NCBI GenBank assembly: GCA_964611515.1
Contig: CAZTAH010000001.1
Coordinates: 1 to 58,720 of the forward strand
Length of the DNA stretch: 58,720 nucleotides
Origin: an uncultured Candidatus Saccharibacteria bacterium
GTDB lineage: Bacteria > Patescibacteriota > Minisyncoccia > Phycocordibacterales > UBA9973
Direction: 5' to 3'
Positions 4,881 to 58,720 of this stretch are shown here, piece by piece; within the stretch, counting starts at the first letter, position 1, and each line of letters begins with the position of its first letter. A program made the translations under genes and the position numbers. Under the pieces are notes generated by a model. It made no database searches and was not told the DNA's origin. It saw only the letters and a program-made list of their open reading frames with translations.

Positions 4881-5792
4881 CTACAAAATATCTTGCAAGC
4901 AATCATTAAATAATCTCACCTGCTCATTATAAAGACTTGTTTTCTTTGATAAACTTTTTAGTAAGAAATTATATTCTTCTACTTTTTCATTATAACTATC
5001 TACCAGCCTAACTCTTTCTTCTGCTTTTTCTCTGTCTCTCTTCCCTTCTTTTGTACTATCTATTTCTTTAGACAAAAAAGAAAAATCACCGATTAGAGCA
5101 TCTAGTCTTTTTTTGCCTCTTTCTATTTCCTCTCTTAATTCTTCCTTAACTTCTGGGCAAACAGATTTTGGAGTTCCAAAGTGGACAACTATAACCCAAA
5201 TCTCTCCTGAATTAAATACCCCTCTTTCAACTGCTACCCCTGTTTCTGTATAACTGTGATTAAGAATATTTTCTCTATGACCTGTGCTTTCTATCCAAGC
5301 ATCTACTAATTCTCTAGGATTTTCAAAATCCCCCATGGCAAGATTTTCTCCTAATAAAATAAAATCATAGCCTACTTCCCTGCCCAAATCTTCAACTGAT
5401 AATCCTTCTGGAGAGATATGATCAAAGTATTGTTTTTCCAAAATATCTTTTGCTTTCTTTTTTGCACTCAAGTTTAATTTATCATTTTCAGACAGAGCAG
5501 TTATTTTATTATTTAAACGGTACTCATTGCTGTATTCTGTGACTAAATCTGCGCCTAGGGTCTTTTCAGCTAGCTTTCTTTCTCTATTAATAACTAGAGG
5601 ACCCAAATTACTTATTCCTCCTAATTTTCTTATCTCCTCTATTTTAAACTTTTTATTAAAAACAAATTTTTGCTCTAAGTAAACATTAACTTTATGATAA
5701 ATCCTAGATAAATCATTTATGCTAAAAGAAAAGAAAAACACAACTAGGAGAAATATTATTACTGCTATAATTCCCCCTGTTCTTCTTTTCAT
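4881..5792 (-). CDS. membrane-anchored CAP/SCP (YkwD-like) domain protein
   Basis: 303 aa. N-terminal TM segment; GENLAMG, AWIESTGHRENIL and YTETGVAV motifs of the CAP superfamily. Confidence 0.7.
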   Translation of the reverse strand: MKRRTGGIIAVIIFLLVVFFFSFSINDLSRIYHKVNVYLEQKFVFNKKFKIEEIRKLGGISNLGPLVINRERKLAEKTLGADLVTEYSNEYRLNNKITALSENDKLNLSAKKKAKDILEKQYFDHISPEGLSVEDLGREVGYDFILLGENLAMGDFENPRELVDAWIESTGHRENILNHSYTETGVAVERGVFNSGEIWVIVVHFGTPKSVCPEVKEELREEIERGKKRLDALIGDFSFLSKEIDSTKEGKRDREKAEERVRLVDSYNEKVEEYNFLLKSLSKKTSLYNEQVRLFNDCLQDIL

Positions 5793-7007: not shown

Positions 7008-8234
7008 TTATTTTGAAATCAAAAACTCTACTGCTTTTTCAAGTTGAGGGTCTTTGTTTTCCTCTGCGTCTTTTCTAGTATATGGAACCTCTATGTCTGG
7101 CTCTAGCCCCCCTTCTGATATTGAAACTCCTTTTGGTGTTAACCAAGATGCCACTGTGACCTTAATAGAGGTATTGTCTGTAACTTTAATAAGTTCCTGA
7201 ACGGAACCCTTTCCAAAAGTTTTAGTTCCAATTAGAGTAGCTATGCCATATTCTCTTAATGCCCCTGCTAATATCTCTGAAGCTGAAGCTGATCCTCCGT
7301 CTATTAAGACTACCATGGATAAGTTTTTATTAAATAAAGCTGGTCCCTTGCTTAAATATAACTTTGGTTTCTTTTTGCTCTTAATTTCTTCTTTTAGTAT
7401 AACCTCCCCTTCTTCAATAAACCAAGAAGCTATTCTAACAGCAGATTCTAAATACCCTCCTGGGTTTCCTCTTAAATCTAAAATTAATTTACTCTTTTTA
7501 GAGTCTATAAATTCCAATAATGCATCTCTAAATAAAGCGAGAGAGTTTTCTGAGAAGCTATAAAAACTAATAACGAAAACTTCGTCATTTTTAATTTCTG
7601 TTTCTATTGTAGGAATTTGAATTTCTTCTCTGGTAACTGTAATTGTCCTAGGCTCTTCTTCGTCTTCCCTTCTTATAATTAAATCAATACTAGTTCCGTC
7701 AGGACCCCTAATTAGATCAACAGCAGCCTCTGTGGAAAGATTGGTCGCCTCCACTTCCCCTATCTTCATTATCTTGTCTCCTGCCTTTAGTCCAGATCGC
7801 CAAGCAGGTGTGTCTTTTAAAGGAGCCACTATGGTTAGAGCATCGTCTCTTATTCCAACTTCTGCTCCTATTCCTTGAAAAGTGCCCCTTATTTCTTCAG
7901 CAAAATTTTCATTTTCTTCGGGAGGAAAAAATACTGTATAAGGGTCTCCAAAAGAAGAAGCCAGACCTGAAATTGCTCCCCAGACCCTTTCTTGATTAGT
8001 AATATCTTCCGCATAAATAGATTTTTCATTTAAAATATTCCATGCTTTCCAAAAAGTATTAAAATCAACCGTAGAGTCTAGTATGTGATTTTTGTTAATT
8101 AAAGAAGAAACTTTTTCTATTTCTGGCCTATTGTTATATCCTAAATATATACCAACTGAAAGTAGGAAAATTACTATGGCCAAAGAAAAAACTACATATC
8201 CTGTGTTTCTTAAAAATAAGTTCTTTTTATTCAT
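7008..8234 (-). CDS. ctpA: S41 carboxy-terminal processing peptidase
   Basis: PDZ region (GD.I..I.G) and S41 core (LILDLRGNPGGYL, GGSASASEI, TFGKGSVQ). Start placed at MNKKNLF, which avoids overlap with the upstream gene; the ORF extends to 8270. Confidence 0.85.
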   Translation of the reverse strand: MNKKNLFLRNTGYVVFSLAIVIFLLSVGIYLGYNNRPEIEKVSSLINKNHILDSTVDFNTFWKAWNILNEKSIYAEDITNQERVWGAISGLASSFGDPYTVFFPPEENENFAEEIRGTFQGIGAEVGIRDDALTIVAPLKDTPAWRSGLKAGDKIMKIGEVEATNLSTEAAVDLIRGPDGTSIDLIIRREDEEEPRTITVTREEIQIPTIETEIKNDEVFVISFYSFSENSLALFRDALLEFIDSKKSKLILDLRGNPGGYLESAVRIASWFIEEGEVILKEEIKSKKKPKLYLSKGPALFNKNLSMVVLIDGGSASASEILAGALREYGIATLIGTKTFGKGSVQELIKVTDNTSIKVTVASWLTPKGVSISEGGLEPDIEVPYTRKDAEENKDPQLEKAVEFLISK

Positions 8235-10962: not shown

Positions 10963-11152
10963 CAAAAGCGCGAATTCAAAAAGACTGGACTGCTCCAGTC
11001 TTTTTCGCTTTTGTGAAGACGGAAGCATGTTTTTCTAGCAAGAAAAACAGCTGAGTCCGGGGCTGGAAAATTTGCGAGCCCACCACTACCCACTTCTAAA
11101 AATAAAGAGAAGTGGGTGTGCGGACAGGCGACGGCGAGCAAATTATTGTGGC
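10963..11152 (+). repeat. tRNA-trailer structured element, Glu-linked member
   Basis: Starts AAAGCG directly after tRNA...ACA. Shares CGCTTTTGTGA(A/G)G, GTTTTNNT-AGCA-ANNAAAAC, a CCGGGG-loop hairpin and AAATT..AATTATTGTGGCC with the Arg and Leu arrays. Confidence 0.75.
10978..11005 (+). terminator. hairpin/terminator in tRNA-Glu trailer
   Basis: AAAAAGACTGGA ctgc TCCAGTCTTTTT (12-bp stem plus T run). Confidence 0.7.
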
Positions 11153-28946: not shown

Positions 28947-28965
28947 TGTGCCCTCGGCAGGAATC
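28947..28965 (-). repeat. displaced exact copy of tRNA-Arg 3' end (19 nt)
   Basis: Minus sense GATTCCTGCCGAGGGCACA equals the end of the gene at 29167-29185. Flanked by GTGACC and AAAGCG. Confidence 0.9.
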
Positions 28966-29096
28966 GGTCACTCTCGTGGATATTTTGTTTCTGGTTCGAC
29001 AAGCTCACCATCACAAAATATCTCACTCCATCGGCCCCCACTCGGTCGTTTCCTTTTTCCTAATCTTAATTAGGAAAAAGGGCTTTGCGCGACCTC

Positions 29097-29119
29097 GGTT
29101 CGATTCCCGCGAATTGCAC
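29097..29119 (+). other. orphan tRNA T-loop/3'-end-like fragment
   Basis: GGTTCGATTCCCGCGAATTGCAC. No matching 5' half. Confidence 0.4.
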
Positions 29120-29168
29120 TAAAATTCTAAATCCCAAGAACTCCGTTCTTGGTCTTAAGTATTTTATG

Positions 29169-48715: not shown

Positions 48716-48779
48716 TAAAGAGAGTCAGGAGAAAACCGAAAATCCTAAAAAGAGTAGGTGCTATTTAAAAAAACAAGAG

Positions 48780-49013: not shown

Positions 49014-49070
49014 CATTAGGAGAAAGCCGAAAATCCTTAAAAGAGTAGGCAAAATTAAAAATTTAAAAAA

Positions 49071-57745: not shown

Positions 57746-57890
57746 ATAATTTCATATTACTCTAAAAGATACTTTTTTACAATTAGAAGATTCCTAGGCT
57801 TGTCCTGGGTTCATTTTTTTAACCTCAGCCTAGGACCGTCCTAGACTCACTAGAAACAAGCAAGGGGCCTGTCTGCGCAGGCAGGCCTGT

Positions 57891-58024
57891 CCCTAACACC
57901 AATGTTTTCATTCTAATGCTTTTTTGTTATTAGAAAGTTTAATTTAATTAAAAGACAATCTCTCACTCTTGTTCTGAAGAGATTTTAGTTGAATACAAAA
58001 AGCAATGGAAATATTGGTGTGGGG
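57891..58024 (-). repeat. MITE-like element, copy 4 (inverted, left terminus degenerate)
   Basis: Preceded by a GC palindrome at 57864-57890. The 57864-58024 block is repeated at 58226-58385. Confidence 0.75.
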
Positions 58025-58059
58025 GTAACCAAGTGGACGGCCGTCCGTTTGGTTACCCC
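58021..58059. repeat. REP-like palindrome copy e
   Basis: GGGGGTAACCAAGTGGACGGCCGTCCGTTTGGTTACCCC. Confidence 0.85.
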
Positions 58060-58100
58060 TTAGAACTTTTTTTGATTTTTATAGTTTTAGGTATTTGTTT

Positions 58101-58130
58101 GAGCCGCTTCCCAGACTTGAACTGGGGACC
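58101..58130 (-). pseudogene. tRNA-like 3' half (intact T arm + acceptor 3' strand) of a tRNA not present in the window
   Basis: Minus sense GGTC-CCCAG-TTCAAGT-CTGGG-AAGCGGC-TCA. No matching 5' acceptor strand nearby. Confidence 0.5.
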
Positions 58131-58252
58131 TTCGCTTTAGTTATGCGCCTGTTCCCACTTCGCCAAGGCTACGCGGGACAAGCTCGCACACCCACTTTTC
58201 TCAATTCTTAGAGGTGGGTTTCGTGGGGGCCTGCCTGCGCAGGCGGGCCTGT

Positions 58253-58385
58253 CCCCACACCAATGTTTTCATTCTTTTGCTTTTTTGTTATTAGAAAGTT
58301 TAATTTAATTAAAAAATAATCTCTCACTCTTGCTCTGAAGAGATTTTAGTTGAATACAAAAAGCTATGGAAATATTGGTGTGGGG
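58253..58385 (-). repeat. MITE-like element, copy 5 (inverted)
   Basis: Runs from CCCCACACCAATGTTTTCAT.. to ..ATGGAAATATTGGTGTGGGG. Confidence 0.8.
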
Positions 58386-58720
58386 ATTGACATAGCCTAG
58401 ATTGATTACTTTTCGTGAGCCGCTTCCCAGACTTAAGCTAGGATTCTTTGCTTTAGTTATGCGCCTGTCCGCACACCTACTTTTCTTGATTCTTAAAAGT
58501 GGGTGTGGGGATTGACATAACCTAGATAAGTTACAATACTTGAGCCGCTTCCCAGACTTAAGCTAGGATTCTTTGCTTTAGTTATGCGCCTGTCCGCACA
58601 CCTACTTTTCTTGATTCTTAAAAGTGGGTGTGGGGATTGACATAGCCTAGATTGATTACTTTTCGTGAGCCGCTTCCCAGACTTAAGCTAGGATTCTTTG
58701 CTTTAGTTATGCTTTGACAT
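58382..58720 (-). repeat. 125-bp tandem array (at least 2.7 copies) running into the contig end
   Basis: Unit starts at 58382, 58507 and 58632. Each unit carries CTTAAGTCTGGGAAGCGGCTCA (minus sense) and the hairpin CACACCCACTTTT..AAAAGTAGGTGTG. Confidence 0.9.

What the first reader, a model, noticed from the sequence alone, without database searches (positions are those of the whole stretch)
58090..58720. Third tRNA-3'-end-bearing tandem array (125 bp) that runs off the contig end
Seen: the 125-bp units (starts 58382, 58507, 58632) contain CTTAAGTCTGGGAAGCGGCTCA on the minus strand. A better-preserved relative at 58101-58130 has an intact T arm (CCCAG-TTCAAGT-CTGGG) plus AAGCGGC-T-CA. These are the 3' end of a tRNA not encoded in this window. 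If the Leu and Arg arrangement holds, the parent tRNA lies just beyond position 58720 on the minus strand. Units also contain the CACACCCACTTTT..AAAAGTAGGTGTG-CGGACAGGCG module shared with the tRNA-Glu trailer (11088-11130). The contig probably broke here because of the repeats.
Basis: partly seen in the sequence, partly recalled or inferred. Interest (0 to 1): 0.6.

Follow-up and report, generated by a model that had tools for sequence, protein, structure and literature searches.

The report
Dead tRNA-Thr tail copies in tandem
The repeats at the end of this window are four non-coding, broken copies of the back part of a threonine tRNA gene lined up behind the live gene (which lies on the next contig), a repeat family confined to this one tRNA in one genus of ultra-small bacteria; it resembles a 1970s E. 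coli oddity and how it first arose is unsettled.

Summary
TRF finds 125 bp x 2.7 at 58377-58712. The parent is tRNA-Thr(UGU) on contig C4 (38-111, minus). C4 overlaps the window end by 14 nt and would place the tRNA about 24 nt beyond 58720.

The basic unit is not 125 bp but a 72-77-nt unit I call T1. It has an AT-rich spacer, an invariant core TCAAAGCATAAC, and a restart of tRNA-Thr from anticodon-loop nt 36 to its 3' end. This genome has four units. Two hold a 49-nt hairpin module inside the core, which gives the 125-bp period. The farthest holds a 239-bp composite insert and a perfect 40-nt tRNA copy (58100-58139).

T1 follows tRNA-Thr(UGU) in at least 17 of 93 genus genomes and in 5 metagenome contigs, and was seen nowhere else. 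It has 0-4 copies, and the number differs between near-identical populations.

Best reading: a locus-bound array of dead tRNA-tail copies that grows, shrinks and trades its last 18 nt with the live gene by recombination between the repeated tRNA ends. How it first arose is unresolved. The closest known case is the E. coli tyrT/rtT 178-bp repeat, re-checked here.

The scan noted T1 before on another genome (e1-832339).

The parts
58100..58139 (-). Farthest (fourth) tRNA-tail copy. It is a perfect 40-nt copy of tRNA-Thr(UGU) from anticodon-loop nt 36 to the 3' end plus CA.
   Evidence: 39/39 BLAST identity to the C4 tRNA; exact 40-mer located.
58140..58146 (-). Right half of the invariant T1 core (GCATAAC), abutting the tRNA restart of unit 4.
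58147..58222 (-). Hairpin module (CCCACCTCTAAGAATTGAGAAAAGTGGGTGTG) plus a GC-rich piece. It is the longer relative of the 49-nt insert. Its CTTCGCCAAGGCTACG part recurs in the tRNA-Ser(UGA) trailer on C16.
58223..58252 (.). GC-rich palindrome ACAGGCCCGCCTGCGCAGGCAGGCCCCCAC. It is of the same type as the CCCGCC..GGCGGG hairpins that split dead tRNA pieces at nuclease cassettes.
58253..58385 (-). About 135-bp MITE-like element with CCCCACACC...GGTGTGGGG ends, lodged in the core of unit 4.
   Evidence: At least 8 copies at 77-94% identity in G000; coordinates.
58386..58415 (-). Left part of the unit 4 linker (type B: CGAAAAGTAATCAATCTAGGCTATGTCAAT).
58416..58455 (-). Decayed 40-nt tRNA part of unit 3. 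There are 7 changes in its first 21 nt, and its last 19 nt equal the matching stretch after the live tRNA (its final 18 nt plus the next base).
58456..58540 (-). Unit 3 linker: core right half (58456-58462), 49-nt hairpin insert (58462/3-58510), type A left part (58512-58540).
58541..58580 (-). Decayed 40-nt tRNA part of unit 2.
58581..58665 (-). Unit 2 linker: core right half (58581-58587), 49-nt hairpin insert (58587/8-58635), type B left part (58636-58665).
58666..58705 (-). Decayed 40-nt tRNA part of unit 1, the unit nearest the tRNA.
58706..58720 (-). Uninterrupted T1 core of unit 1 (ATGTCAAAGCATAAC), cut by the contig end. The linker continues on C4 1-37 and the live tRNA-Thr(UGU) is at C4 38-111, equivalent to window 58744-58817.
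58022..58059 (.). REP-like 38-bp GC palindrome just past the array. It is followed by a second copy of the 135-bp MITE at 57864-58024.

Best explanation
**What it is.** The region is the far end of a roughly 0.7-kb stretch without ORFs that directly follows the live tRNA-Thr(UGU) gene. It consists of four tandem dead copies of the tRNA's 3' part. The building block (T1, 72-77 nt) has three pieces:
- an AT-rich spacer;
- an invariant core, TCAAAGCATAAC;
- tRNA-Thr restarted at anticodon-loop nt 36 and running to the 3' end.

T1 is bound to this one locus and is inherited within one Patescibacteria genus.

**How it behaves (shown).**
- Units are gained and lost by recombination or slippage between the repeated tRNA 3' ends.
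- The same exchange keeps the last 18 nt of each unit identical to the live gene, with the boundary in the T loop.
- Upstream of that boundary the copies decay.
- In this genome small palindromic elements settled inside the core. Two units took a 49-nt hairpin module, giving the 125-bp period. The farthest unit took a MITE, a GC palindrome and a hairpin.

**How it arose (inferred).** The first a-b-a arrangement most likely came from an element that entered the tRNA gene at the anticodon loop and rebuilt the displaced end, carried by either an integrase or a nuclease cassette. T1 would then be its gene-less relic. It encodes no tRNA and no protein.
For: - **Anatomy and parent tRNA:**
- **Same unit in relatives:** T1 lies behind tRNA-Thr(UGU) in G016 (3 units), G066 (2 perfect 72-bp units), G027, G100, G021, G001, G061, G068, G087, G083, G112 and G074. 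Decayed copies are in G007, G032, G036 and G110. It is also in 5 metagenome contigs and 1 further MAG.
- **Locus-bound:** every strong hit that was checked abuts tRNA-Thr(UGU). None turned up elsewhere in 93 genus genomes. An order-wide search of 400 genomes gave only chance-level hits, and viral contigs gave none.
- **Copy-number change:** metagenome contigs L033 and L036 are near-identical but hold 3 and 2 units. The breakpoint lies inside GAAGCGGCTCA. Empty sites occur in G024, G010, G031 and G005.
- **Exchange with the live gene:** all 7 unit-versus-tRNA differences fall in the first 21 of 40 nt (P=0.006). The unit T stem pairs an older-type 5' strand (CCTAG) with the G000-specific 3' strand (CTGGG).
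- **Descent rather than repeated re-copying:** units in at least 6 lineages share CTCT(G/A) where the resident tRNAs have CTGAG.
- **No coding or known RNA content:** no ORF of note, no tRNA or Rfam call for the units, and weak fold z-scores.
- **Parallel design in the same genome:** live tRNA-Gln is preceded by a GIY-YIG ORF and by dead 5' copies split in the D loop by a GC hairpin. The same design sits in front of tRNA-Thr in L036 but not in its twin L033.
- **Known analogue re-checked:** E. coli tyrV-rttR has 178 bp x 3.1, each unit ending with the tRNA's last 19 nt.
Against: - **Invariant core unexplained:** the 12-29-nt core is identical across species whose other non-coding DNA cannot be aligned. 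It is also identical in all three G016 units (29/29), while their flanks are only 44-77% alike. Passive decay does not explain this. It implies selection on, or a mechanistic need for, the core.
- **Order varies:** T1 and the Leu-array-type elements occur in either order between genomes (G083 versus G087, G021 and G001). This is easier to explain if units move.
- **No source element seen:** no T1 relative with an integrase or nuclease gene between the tRNA and the dead copy was found. The proposed origin is by analogy only.
- **Far ends differ:** arrays end after the tRNA part in G066, G016 and G000, after the core in G027, and after the spacer in L043. One of these (L043) fits plain tandem duplication.
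- **Untested in this genome:** the contig join and the unit number could not be checked with reads.
Confidence: 0.55

Rival explanations
1. T1 is itself an active, gene-less, site-specific cassette. The invariant core plus the first bases of the tRNA restart would be the cis site for an enzyme supplied in trans. Candidates are the genus's roughly 320-aa tyrosine recombinase, one of the multi-copy Y1/RAYT-like proteins, or a nuclease. Units would insert and excise at tRNA-Thr(UGU) and spread between species.
For: - The core is invariant across species and in every unit while the rest decays.
- Presence and absence differ between close relatives (G001 and L035 versus G005).
- The order relative to L-type elements varies.
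- G066 has two perfect copies, which points to recent activity.
- The unit boundaries (nt 36, and nt 54-57) coincide with the anticodon-loop and T-loop subsites used by tRNA-targeting integrases (PMC4383910).
- Y1-like proteins occur in 1-7 copies per genome, and a tyrosine recombinase is present in 5 of 5 relatives tested.
Against: - A 72-nt unit is too short to form a double-stranded circle.
- It sits at a single locus in all genomes, and no copy was found on viral contigs.
- The one breakpoint seen lies in the shared tRNA end, not at the core.
- No tyrosine recombinase is found in the G000 assembly.
- Hairpin arm changes are not compensated, so there is no evidence for a folded recognition structure.
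Confidence: 0.22
2. The array is a functional RNA. The tRNA-Thr trailer would be transcribed with the tRNA, and each unit would give a small RNA or a binding site whose active part is the conserved core. The models are rtT RNA of the E. coli tyrT operon and tRNA 3' external spacers that act as sRNA sponges. Repeating the unit would raise the dose.
For: - The core is conserved as a linear sequence in every unit.
- The array has the same orientation as the tRNA and directly follows it, with a terminator only after the last unit in relatives.
- rtT RNA offers a precedent (10.1101/2024.07.17.603846).
Against: - No Rfam match and weak fold z-scores of -1 to -2.8.
- No complementary partner of 12 nt or more in the genome beyond chance.
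- Most species of the genus lack T1, and in G007, G032 and G036 the core itself has decayed.
- No expression data could be obtained.
Confidence: 0.13
3. Plain tandem duplication of the tRNA 3' part plus its native trailer by slippage at a TAA microhomology, with no element ever involved. It would then be kept uniform by concerted evolution.
For: - In L043 the array ends with the spacer followed by unique DNA. In G027 it ends after the core, followed by TAATTTTT. Both are (a-b)n-c layouts expected of simple duplication.
- The whole family sits at one locus.
Against: - G066, G016, L032, L034 and G000 end with a tRNA part followed by the ordinary terminator. That is an a-(b-a)n layout, the signature of an insertion.
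- The start at anticodon-loop nt 36 and the second boundary in the T loop match recurrent boundaries at at least 8 other tRNAs of this genome.
- Cross-species invariance of the core cannot come from concerted evolution within a genome.
Confidence: 0.08
4. Assembly artefact: a mis-joined or collapsed repeat in a metagenome-assembled genome.
For: The array runs off a contig end. The overlap with C4 is only 14 nt, whereas other joins in this assembly overlap by 55 nt.
Against: The same unit and layout recur in more than 15 independently assembled genomes and in 5 metagenome contigs. Some lie in long contigs with unique DNA on both sides.
Confidence: 0.02

Closest known systems
E. coli tyrT/tyrV trailer repeats (rttR, rtT RNA; 178 bp x 3.1)
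   Same: - Tandem non-coding units lie directly behind a tRNA gene on the same strand.
- Each unit ends with the last 18-19 nt of that tRNA, starting in the T loop.
- There are about three copies.
- I re-checked this on K-12 MG1655.
   Different: - There is no sequence or Rfam similarity.
- The T1 tRNA part originally starts in the anticodon loop (40 nt).
- T1 units are 72-125 bp, not 178 bp.
- T1 has an invariant 12-nt core and no copy of the T-arm 5' half.
- rtT is a known processed RNA, whereas T1 expression is untested.
Displaced tRNA fragments (attL/attR) of integrase-borne genomic islands and prophages (Islander principle, PMC4383910)
   Same: - An intact tRNA is followed by a direct-repeat 3' fragment.
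- The fragment starts at the anticodon-loop ('A') subsite. A second boundary lies at the T-loop or junction ('J') subsite.
- Tandem accretion at a single tRNA is known for such islands.
   Different: - The interval is 32-85 bp, not kilobases.
- There is no integrase gene in or near it, and none in the G000 assembly.
- Units are near-identical to each other rather than being different islands.
GIY-YIG nuclease cassettes in Patescibacteria tRNA genes
   Same: - A live tRNA sits next to a dead partial copy that is interrupted in a loop-coding position by a palindromic tag.
- Gene-less tandem derivatives occur.
- Presence differs between close relatives.
- I confirmed this design at tRNA-Gln in G000 and in front of tRNA-Thr in L036 and G045.
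   Different: - Those cassettes sit on the 5' side and carry a nuclease ORF. T1 is on the 3' side and has no ORF in any of about 20 loci.
- The T1 tag is a 12-nt AT-rich core, not a GC hairpin, except in G000.
- Similarity of the T1 left arm to tRNA nt 29-35 is too short to prove.
MITEs and REP/REPIN-type palindromic elements
   Same: The 49-nt hairpin insert, the 135-bp element with inverted CCCCACACC ends and the 38-bp GC palindrome are dispersed, gene-less and multi-copy. A Y1/RAYT-like protein family is present.
   Different: These are passengers inside the array, not the array unit. The Y1-like gene in G000 is not flanked by the palindromes, and its HUH motif is degenerate.

Membership tests
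rtT-type tRNA-trailer tandem repeat (E. coli tyrT) | Tandem units directly downstream of a tRNA gene, on the same strand. | tested here: met
   E. coli reference.
rtT-type tRNA-trailer tandem repeat (E. coli tyrT) | Each unit ends with the tRNA's 3'-terminal ~19 nt, starting in the T loop. | tested here: met
   18 nt exact in three units; 19 nt in E. coli.
rtT-type tRNA-trailer tandem repeat (E. coli tyrT) | Homology to rtT RNA (Rfam rtT family). | tested here: not met
   No Rfam match other than tRNA, even at E<=1.
rtT-type tRNA-trailer tandem repeat (E. coli tyrT) | A stable RNA processed from the tRNA precursor. | not testable with these tools
Integrase-borne island in a tRNA gene | Regenerated tRNA plus a displaced 3' fragment in direct orientation, starting at the anticodon-loop or T-loop subsite. 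| tested here: met
   40-nt copy from nt 36; 18-nt copies from nt 57. Subsites as in PMC4383910.
Integrase-borne island in a tRNA gene | Tyrosine integrase gene between the tRNA and the fragment. | tested here: not met
   No ORF over 39 aa in the tract. PF00589 gave no hit in G000.
tRNA-invading GIY-YIG cassette (scan-internal family) | Small GIY-YIG ORF next to the live tRNA. | tested here: not met
   None on the 3' side of tRNA-Thr at any T1 locus. Such ORFs are present at tRNA-Gln in G000 and 5' of tRNA-Thr in L036 and G045.
tRNA-invading GIY-YIG cassette (scan-internal family) | Dead tRNA piece split in a loop-coding position by a palindromic tag. | tested here: inconclusive
   The core or hairpin sits exactly before nt 36. 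The sequence left of it (GGTT(A/C/T)TG against CGCTTTTG) is too short and too diverged to prove that it is tRNA-derived.
tRNA gene or pseudogene | Cloverleaf recognised by ARAGORN or the Rfam tRNA model. | tested here: not met
   The units are not called as tRNAs. The linker shows no significant similarity to the tRNA 5' half.
MITE / REP-like element (for the inserts only) | Inverted termini and many dispersed copies. | tested here: met
   The 135-bp element has at least 8 copies in G000. The CCCCACACC end occurs 39 times and the GACGGCCGTC palindrome at 26 sites.

The most novel reading that the evidence does not exclude
The invariant core TCAAAGCATAAC, placed exactly at anticodon-loop position 35/36 of each dead copy, would be a functional mark of an undescribed system that attacks and rebuilds tRNA genes. 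It could be the cis site of a gene-less site-specific cassette. Alternatively it could be an immunity tag that keeps dead copies from being re-cut by a tRNA-gene-specific homing nuclease. T1, the Leu/Arg/Lys-type units of this genome and even the E. coli tyrT repeats would then be products of one general process acting on the D, anticodon and T loops of tRNA genes.
Probability: 0.2. Interest if true: 0.75.

Novelty: new variant of a known kind. Interest (0 to 1): 0.5.

Why it matters
- In a 0.5-Mb streamlined genome, about a third of the tRNA genes carry partial copies of their own ends. These tracts break the assembly.
- The Thr array adds a third boundary type (anticodon loop) to the T-loop and D-loop types.
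- It shows that such tracts trade sequence with the live tRNA gene.
- It gives a clean, genus-wide family with a short invariant core that can be tested at the bench.
- It links the phenomenon to the E. coli tyrT repeat, which as far as I know has never been explained.
- For annotation: tRNA-end fragments in these genomes need not mark islands, and contig ends at tRNAs can be joined by following such units.

Tried and rejected
- **Thr-tRNA mimic regulating thrS:** rejected. The gene after the array is proS.
- **Linker as a decayed tRNA 5' half:** alignment scores are no better than shuffles.
- **dif/Xer (IMEX-like) site:** the arms are in the wrong order, the XerD-arm-like 11-mer is common by chance, and no dif candidate was found.
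- **Promoter:** one consensus hit on the antisense strand (TTGACA-17-AATACT at 58512-58540) is not conserved in relatives.
- **Mini-ORF in the core (MSKHN):** the start codon and frame are not conserved.
- **Structured RNA:** no compensatory changes in the hairpin, and weak z-scores.
- **Pairing partner for the core:** only chance-level 12-mers.
- **Phage origin:** no viral contig holds the core.
- **Spacer 'ATATAGGT' as the tail of a GIY-YIG ORF:** an 8-mer of this composition is expected dozens of times by chance (my own estimate), and the next bases at the Gln locus derive from tRNA-Gln.
- **Recombinase families in G000:** tyrosine recombinase, TnpB, reverse transcriptase, IS110 and HNH gave no hit. 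One large serine recombinase and one weak Y1-like protein were found, and neither lies near the array.
Full report
**1. Check of the observation**

The window is contig C1 of a 497-kb, 37-contig, roughly 34% G+C genome that is 99% complete by marker genes. Relatives carry record titles such as Candidatus Nomurabacteria and 'uncultured Candidatus Saccharibacteria', so the organism belongs to the Patescibacteria/CPR.

- TRF finds a 125-bp x 2.7 array at 58377-58712 with 92% matches.
- BLAST of all 37 tRNAs of the genome against the genome shows three exact 18-nt copies at 58417-58434, 58542-58559 and 58667-58684. It also shows one exact 39-nt copy at 58101-58139. All match the 3' part of a single tRNA, tRNA-Thr(UGU) on contig C4, complement of 38-111.
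- None of the eight tRNAs in the window has this end.

**2. Where the parent tRNA lies**

- C4 starts TTATGCTTTGACATAACC... and the window ends ...GTTATGCTTTGACAT, an exact 14-nt end overlap. Only eight end overlaps of 12 nt or more exist in the assembly; six are 55-nt k-mer overlaps.
- The joined sequence is the reverse complement of a linker (ATAGGTTATGTCAAAGCATAAC) that is intact behind tRNA-Thr(UGU) in relatives.
- tsf (EF-Ts) lies upstream of tRNA-Thr on C4 as in every relative examined.
Extra hidden units between the contigs cannot be excluded.
- 19 of 74 contig ends lie within 300 bp of a tRNA, a tandem array or a MITE/REP motif, against 8.2% of the genome (p=6e-6).

**3. Anatomy, read in the tRNA's direction (descending coordinates)**

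Four units follow the tRNA. Each ends with a 40-nt tRNA part that starts at T36 in the anticodon loop.

| Unit | tRNA part | Linker |
|---|---|---|
| 1 | 58666-58705 | Uninterrupted 37 nt, AGTATTGTAACTTATCTAGGTTATGTCAAAGCATAAC, split by the contig end |
| 2 | 58541-58580 | 49-nt hairpin module lodged between ATGTCAA and GCATAAC |
| 3 | 58416-58455 | The same 49-nt module at the same spot |
| 4 | 58100-58139 | At that spot: the 135-bp MITE (58253-58385), a GC palindrome (58223-58252) and a longer relative of the hairpin module (58147-58222) |

- The 49-nt module reads CCCCACACCCACTTTT..AAAAGTAGGTGTGCGGACAGGC.
- The 125-bp period is thus a 76-nt unit plus a 49-nt insert.
- Two linker types alternate (type A in units 1 and 3, type B in units 2 and 4), giving a 250-bp higher order.
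- The tRNA part of unit 4 is perfect. Those of units 1-3 differ from the tRNA at 7 positions, all within the first 21 of 40 nt (P=0.006).
- The T stem of units 1-3 pairs CCTAG with CTGGG. The 5' strand keeps the T that is common in the clade. The 3' strand carries the G found in G000's own tRNA. This shows that the last 18 nt were exchanged with the live gene, with the boundary in the T loop.
- No ORF of note lies in the tract. The hairpin module is indeed related to one in the tRNA-Glu trailer. After the array come a REP-like palindrome, a second MITE copy, and then proS and mreB.

**4. The unit is a family (T1) bound to tRNA-Thr(UGU)**

- Same-genus genomes carry the same unit directly behind tRNA-Thr(UGU):
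  - G016 has three units.
  - G066 has two perfect 72-bp units.
  - G027 and G100 have arrays that also break contigs.
  - G021 and G001 have units with a slightly different linker.
- A sequence-only model of the linker plus tRNA restart finds strong hits in 13 of 93 genus genomes, plus decayed copies.
- All eleven newly fetched loci with a tRNA show the hit right after tRNA-Thr(UGU).
- Exact-pattern scans found five metagenome contigs and one further MAG, again all behind tRNA-Thr(UGU).
- Nothing was found in viral contigs. An order-wide scan of 400 genomes gave only chance-level matches: 4 hits, the same order as the handful of reversed-pattern control hits.
- Many genus members have an empty site, with a terminator straight after the tRNA.
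- Two near-identical metagenome contigs, L033 and L036, hold three and two units. The breakpoint lies inside GAAGCGGCTCA.
- Units of at least six lineages share CTCT(G/A) where the resident tRNAs have CTGAG. Units therefore descend from each other and are not re-copied each time. G066 and G000 units match their own tRNA, which shows conversion.

**5. What is conserved**

- In an alignment of 13-16 units the invariant block is TCAAAGCATAAC|TAAA(G/A)CGAAG, usually preceded by ATATAGGTTATG.
- In G016 the 29-nt block is identical in all three units, while their flanks are 44-77% alike.
- The block is identical in species whose tsf-tRNA spacers cannot be aligned.
- Changes in the left arm of the small hairpin are not compensated, and L043 lacks that arm. 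The constraint is therefore on the linear sequence next to the restart point, not on a fold.
- Fold z-scores are weak. Rfam gives nothing but tRNA. No pairing partner was found.
- This invariance is the main fact that passive models do not explain.

**6. Context in this genome**

- At least 13 of 37 tRNAs carry same-strand copies of their own ends:
  - 3' copies of 15-19 nt that start in the T loop: Arg-CCU, Gly-CCC, Leu-CAA x5, Pro, Lys x2, Gly-UCC, Arg-UCU.
  - 5' copies of 15-25 nt: Asp, Met x4, Gln x2, Arg-GCG, Glu-UUC.
- Following a lead from earlier notes of this scan, I tested for nuclease cassettes. G000 has three small GIY-YIG ORFs.
- One of them sits between live tRNA-Gln(CUG) and two dead 5' copies. 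Each dead copy is nt 1-18 + a 38-nt GC hairpin + nt 19-25.
- In front of tRNA-Thr, contig L036 has a frameshifted GIY-YIG gene and a dead piece (nt 1-13 | two GC hairpins | nt 14-24). Its twin L033 lacks both. G045 has the same design.
- 'Live tRNA plus dead copy split in a loop by a palindromic tag' is therefore a real, polymorphic design in these bacteria.
- T1 could be its 3'-side, gene-less counterpart, with the core (and in G000 the hairpin modules) as the tag at position 35/36.
- However, no T1 locus has a nuclease gene on the 3' side. G010 has only a frameshifted HNH gene in that slot. The sequence left of the core is also too diverged to prove that it is tRNA-derived.
- Recombinase scans:

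| Family | G000 | Relatives |
|---|---|---|
| Tyrosine recombinase | none in the assembly | one of about 320 aa in 5 of 5 tested |
| Large serine recombinase | one | not tested |
| Y1/RAYT-like protein | one weak match | 1-7 paralogues |
| TnpB, reverse transcriptase, IS110, HNH | none | not tested |

**7. Comparison with what is known**

- The E. coli K-12 tyrV-rttR locus, re-read here, has 178 bp x 3.1 at 95% identity. Each unit ends AATCCTTCCCCCACCACCA, the tRNA's last 19 nt from the T loop. rtT RNA is cited in 10.1101/2024.07.17.603846. This is the closest described case, but there is no homology.
- The Islander paper (PMC4383910) states the rule that integrating islands split a tRNA gene, restore it and leave a displaced fragment. 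It gives crossover subsites at the anticodon loop, the T loop and the T/acceptor junction. T1's two boundaries match the first two, but there is no integrase and no island.

**8. Verdict**

- Shown:
  - the array and its parent tRNA;
  - the composite unit;
  - the family and its restriction to one locus;
  - copy-number change between near-identical populations;
  - exchange of the last 18 nt with the live gene.
- Inferred: an origin from an element that entered at the anticodon loop and rebuilt the tRNA end.
- Open: why the core is invariant.
- I rate it a new variant of a known kind (tRNA-end trailer repeats and displaced tRNA fragments), of moderate interest. It is noteworthy mainly as one face of a genome-wide phenomenon.
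- The same T1 family was already noted by this scan on another genome (e1-832339), with a similar reading.

Noticed in passing
window 28948-29168; G000 C18:7113-7562; C32:116-491; C12 start / C14 start: The ~190-215-bp units behind tRNA-Arg(CCU), Lys, Gly(UCC) and Arg(UCU) share one build. Each holds a copy of the T-stem 5' strand plus the first part of the T loop, then a ~150-nt GC-rich insert (..CCACGAGAGTGACC), then the last 19 nt of the tRNA. The arm 'complementary to the tRNA end' may therefore simply be the other half of a T arm split in its loop.
   Followed up: partly
L037 (E. coli K-12 NC_000913 1286300-1288000), units at 405-963: The E. coli rttR 178-bp unit has that same build..CCAAGGTTCGA | 72-nt GC-rich insert | AATCCTTCCCCCACCACCA. 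It is a T arm split in its loop, like the CPR Lys/Arg/Gly units.
   Followed up: partly
G000 C15:4958-5600 (minus strand): An 80-aa GIY-YIG ORF (5136-5375) lies between live tRNA-Gln(CUG) and two dead 5' copies. Each dead copy is nt 1-18 + a 38-nt GC hairpin + nt 19-25. The gene-less units keep the last codons of the ORF.
   Followed up: partly
L036 700-1220 versus L033 1950-2110 (metagenome contigs): Near-identical backgrounds differ by a frameshifted GIY-YIG cassette plus a hairpin-split dead tRNA-Thr 5' piece in front of live tRNA-Thr. G045 (L011) has an intact version whose stop codon abuts the tRNA.
   Followed up: partly
G000 C16:1-480: tRNA-Ser(UGA) continues from contig C36. It is followed by three ~43-bp repeats (TTCGCCAAGGCTACGGCGAGACACGTCCGC) and a 102-aa GIY-YIG frame. 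The repeat motif recurs antisense inside the Thr unit 4 insert at window 58147-58222.
   Followed up: no
L003 (G021), L007 (G001), L046 (G087), L047 (G083), L009 (G014): Leu-array-type elements sit behind tRNA-Thr or behind T1 units, in either order. Their 'AAAG(A/C)CGGAG' segment is the same at every target, so only the first arm (xGACTTGAA) tracks the target sequence. This weakens the two-guide reading in earlier notes.
   Followed up: partly
G000 C16:2496-3320 (minus strand): A Y1_Tnp/RAYT-like protein (25 bits) has a degenerate HUH motif (RFH). Relatives hold 1-7 divergent paralogues (34-46% identity), which is many for 0.5-0.8-Mb genomes.
   Followed up: partly
G000 C9:7459-9006 (minus strand): A large serine recombinase (516-aa frame) overlaps or abuts the region just after tRNA-Glu(UUC) (7422-7496). 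That tRNA has a 15-nt copy of its 5' end about 100 nt upstream.
   Followed up: no
L004 (G010), 165-592 after the tRNA-Thr start: A frameshifted HNH endonuclease gene (..EINHIDGN..LLCPNCH) lies between tRNA-Thr(UGU) and the convergent thioredoxin-like gene. This is the slot where other species have T1 units.
   Followed up: no
G000 whole assembly: No tyrosine recombinase (PF00589) is found in G000, although 5 of 5 relatives tested have a ~320-aa one. This is either an assembly gap or a real loss of Xer.
   Followed up: no
window 48726-48760 and 49017-49051: Two DUF805b RNA motif matches lie above the Rfam gathering score, next to tRNA-Ala(UGC).
   Followed up: no
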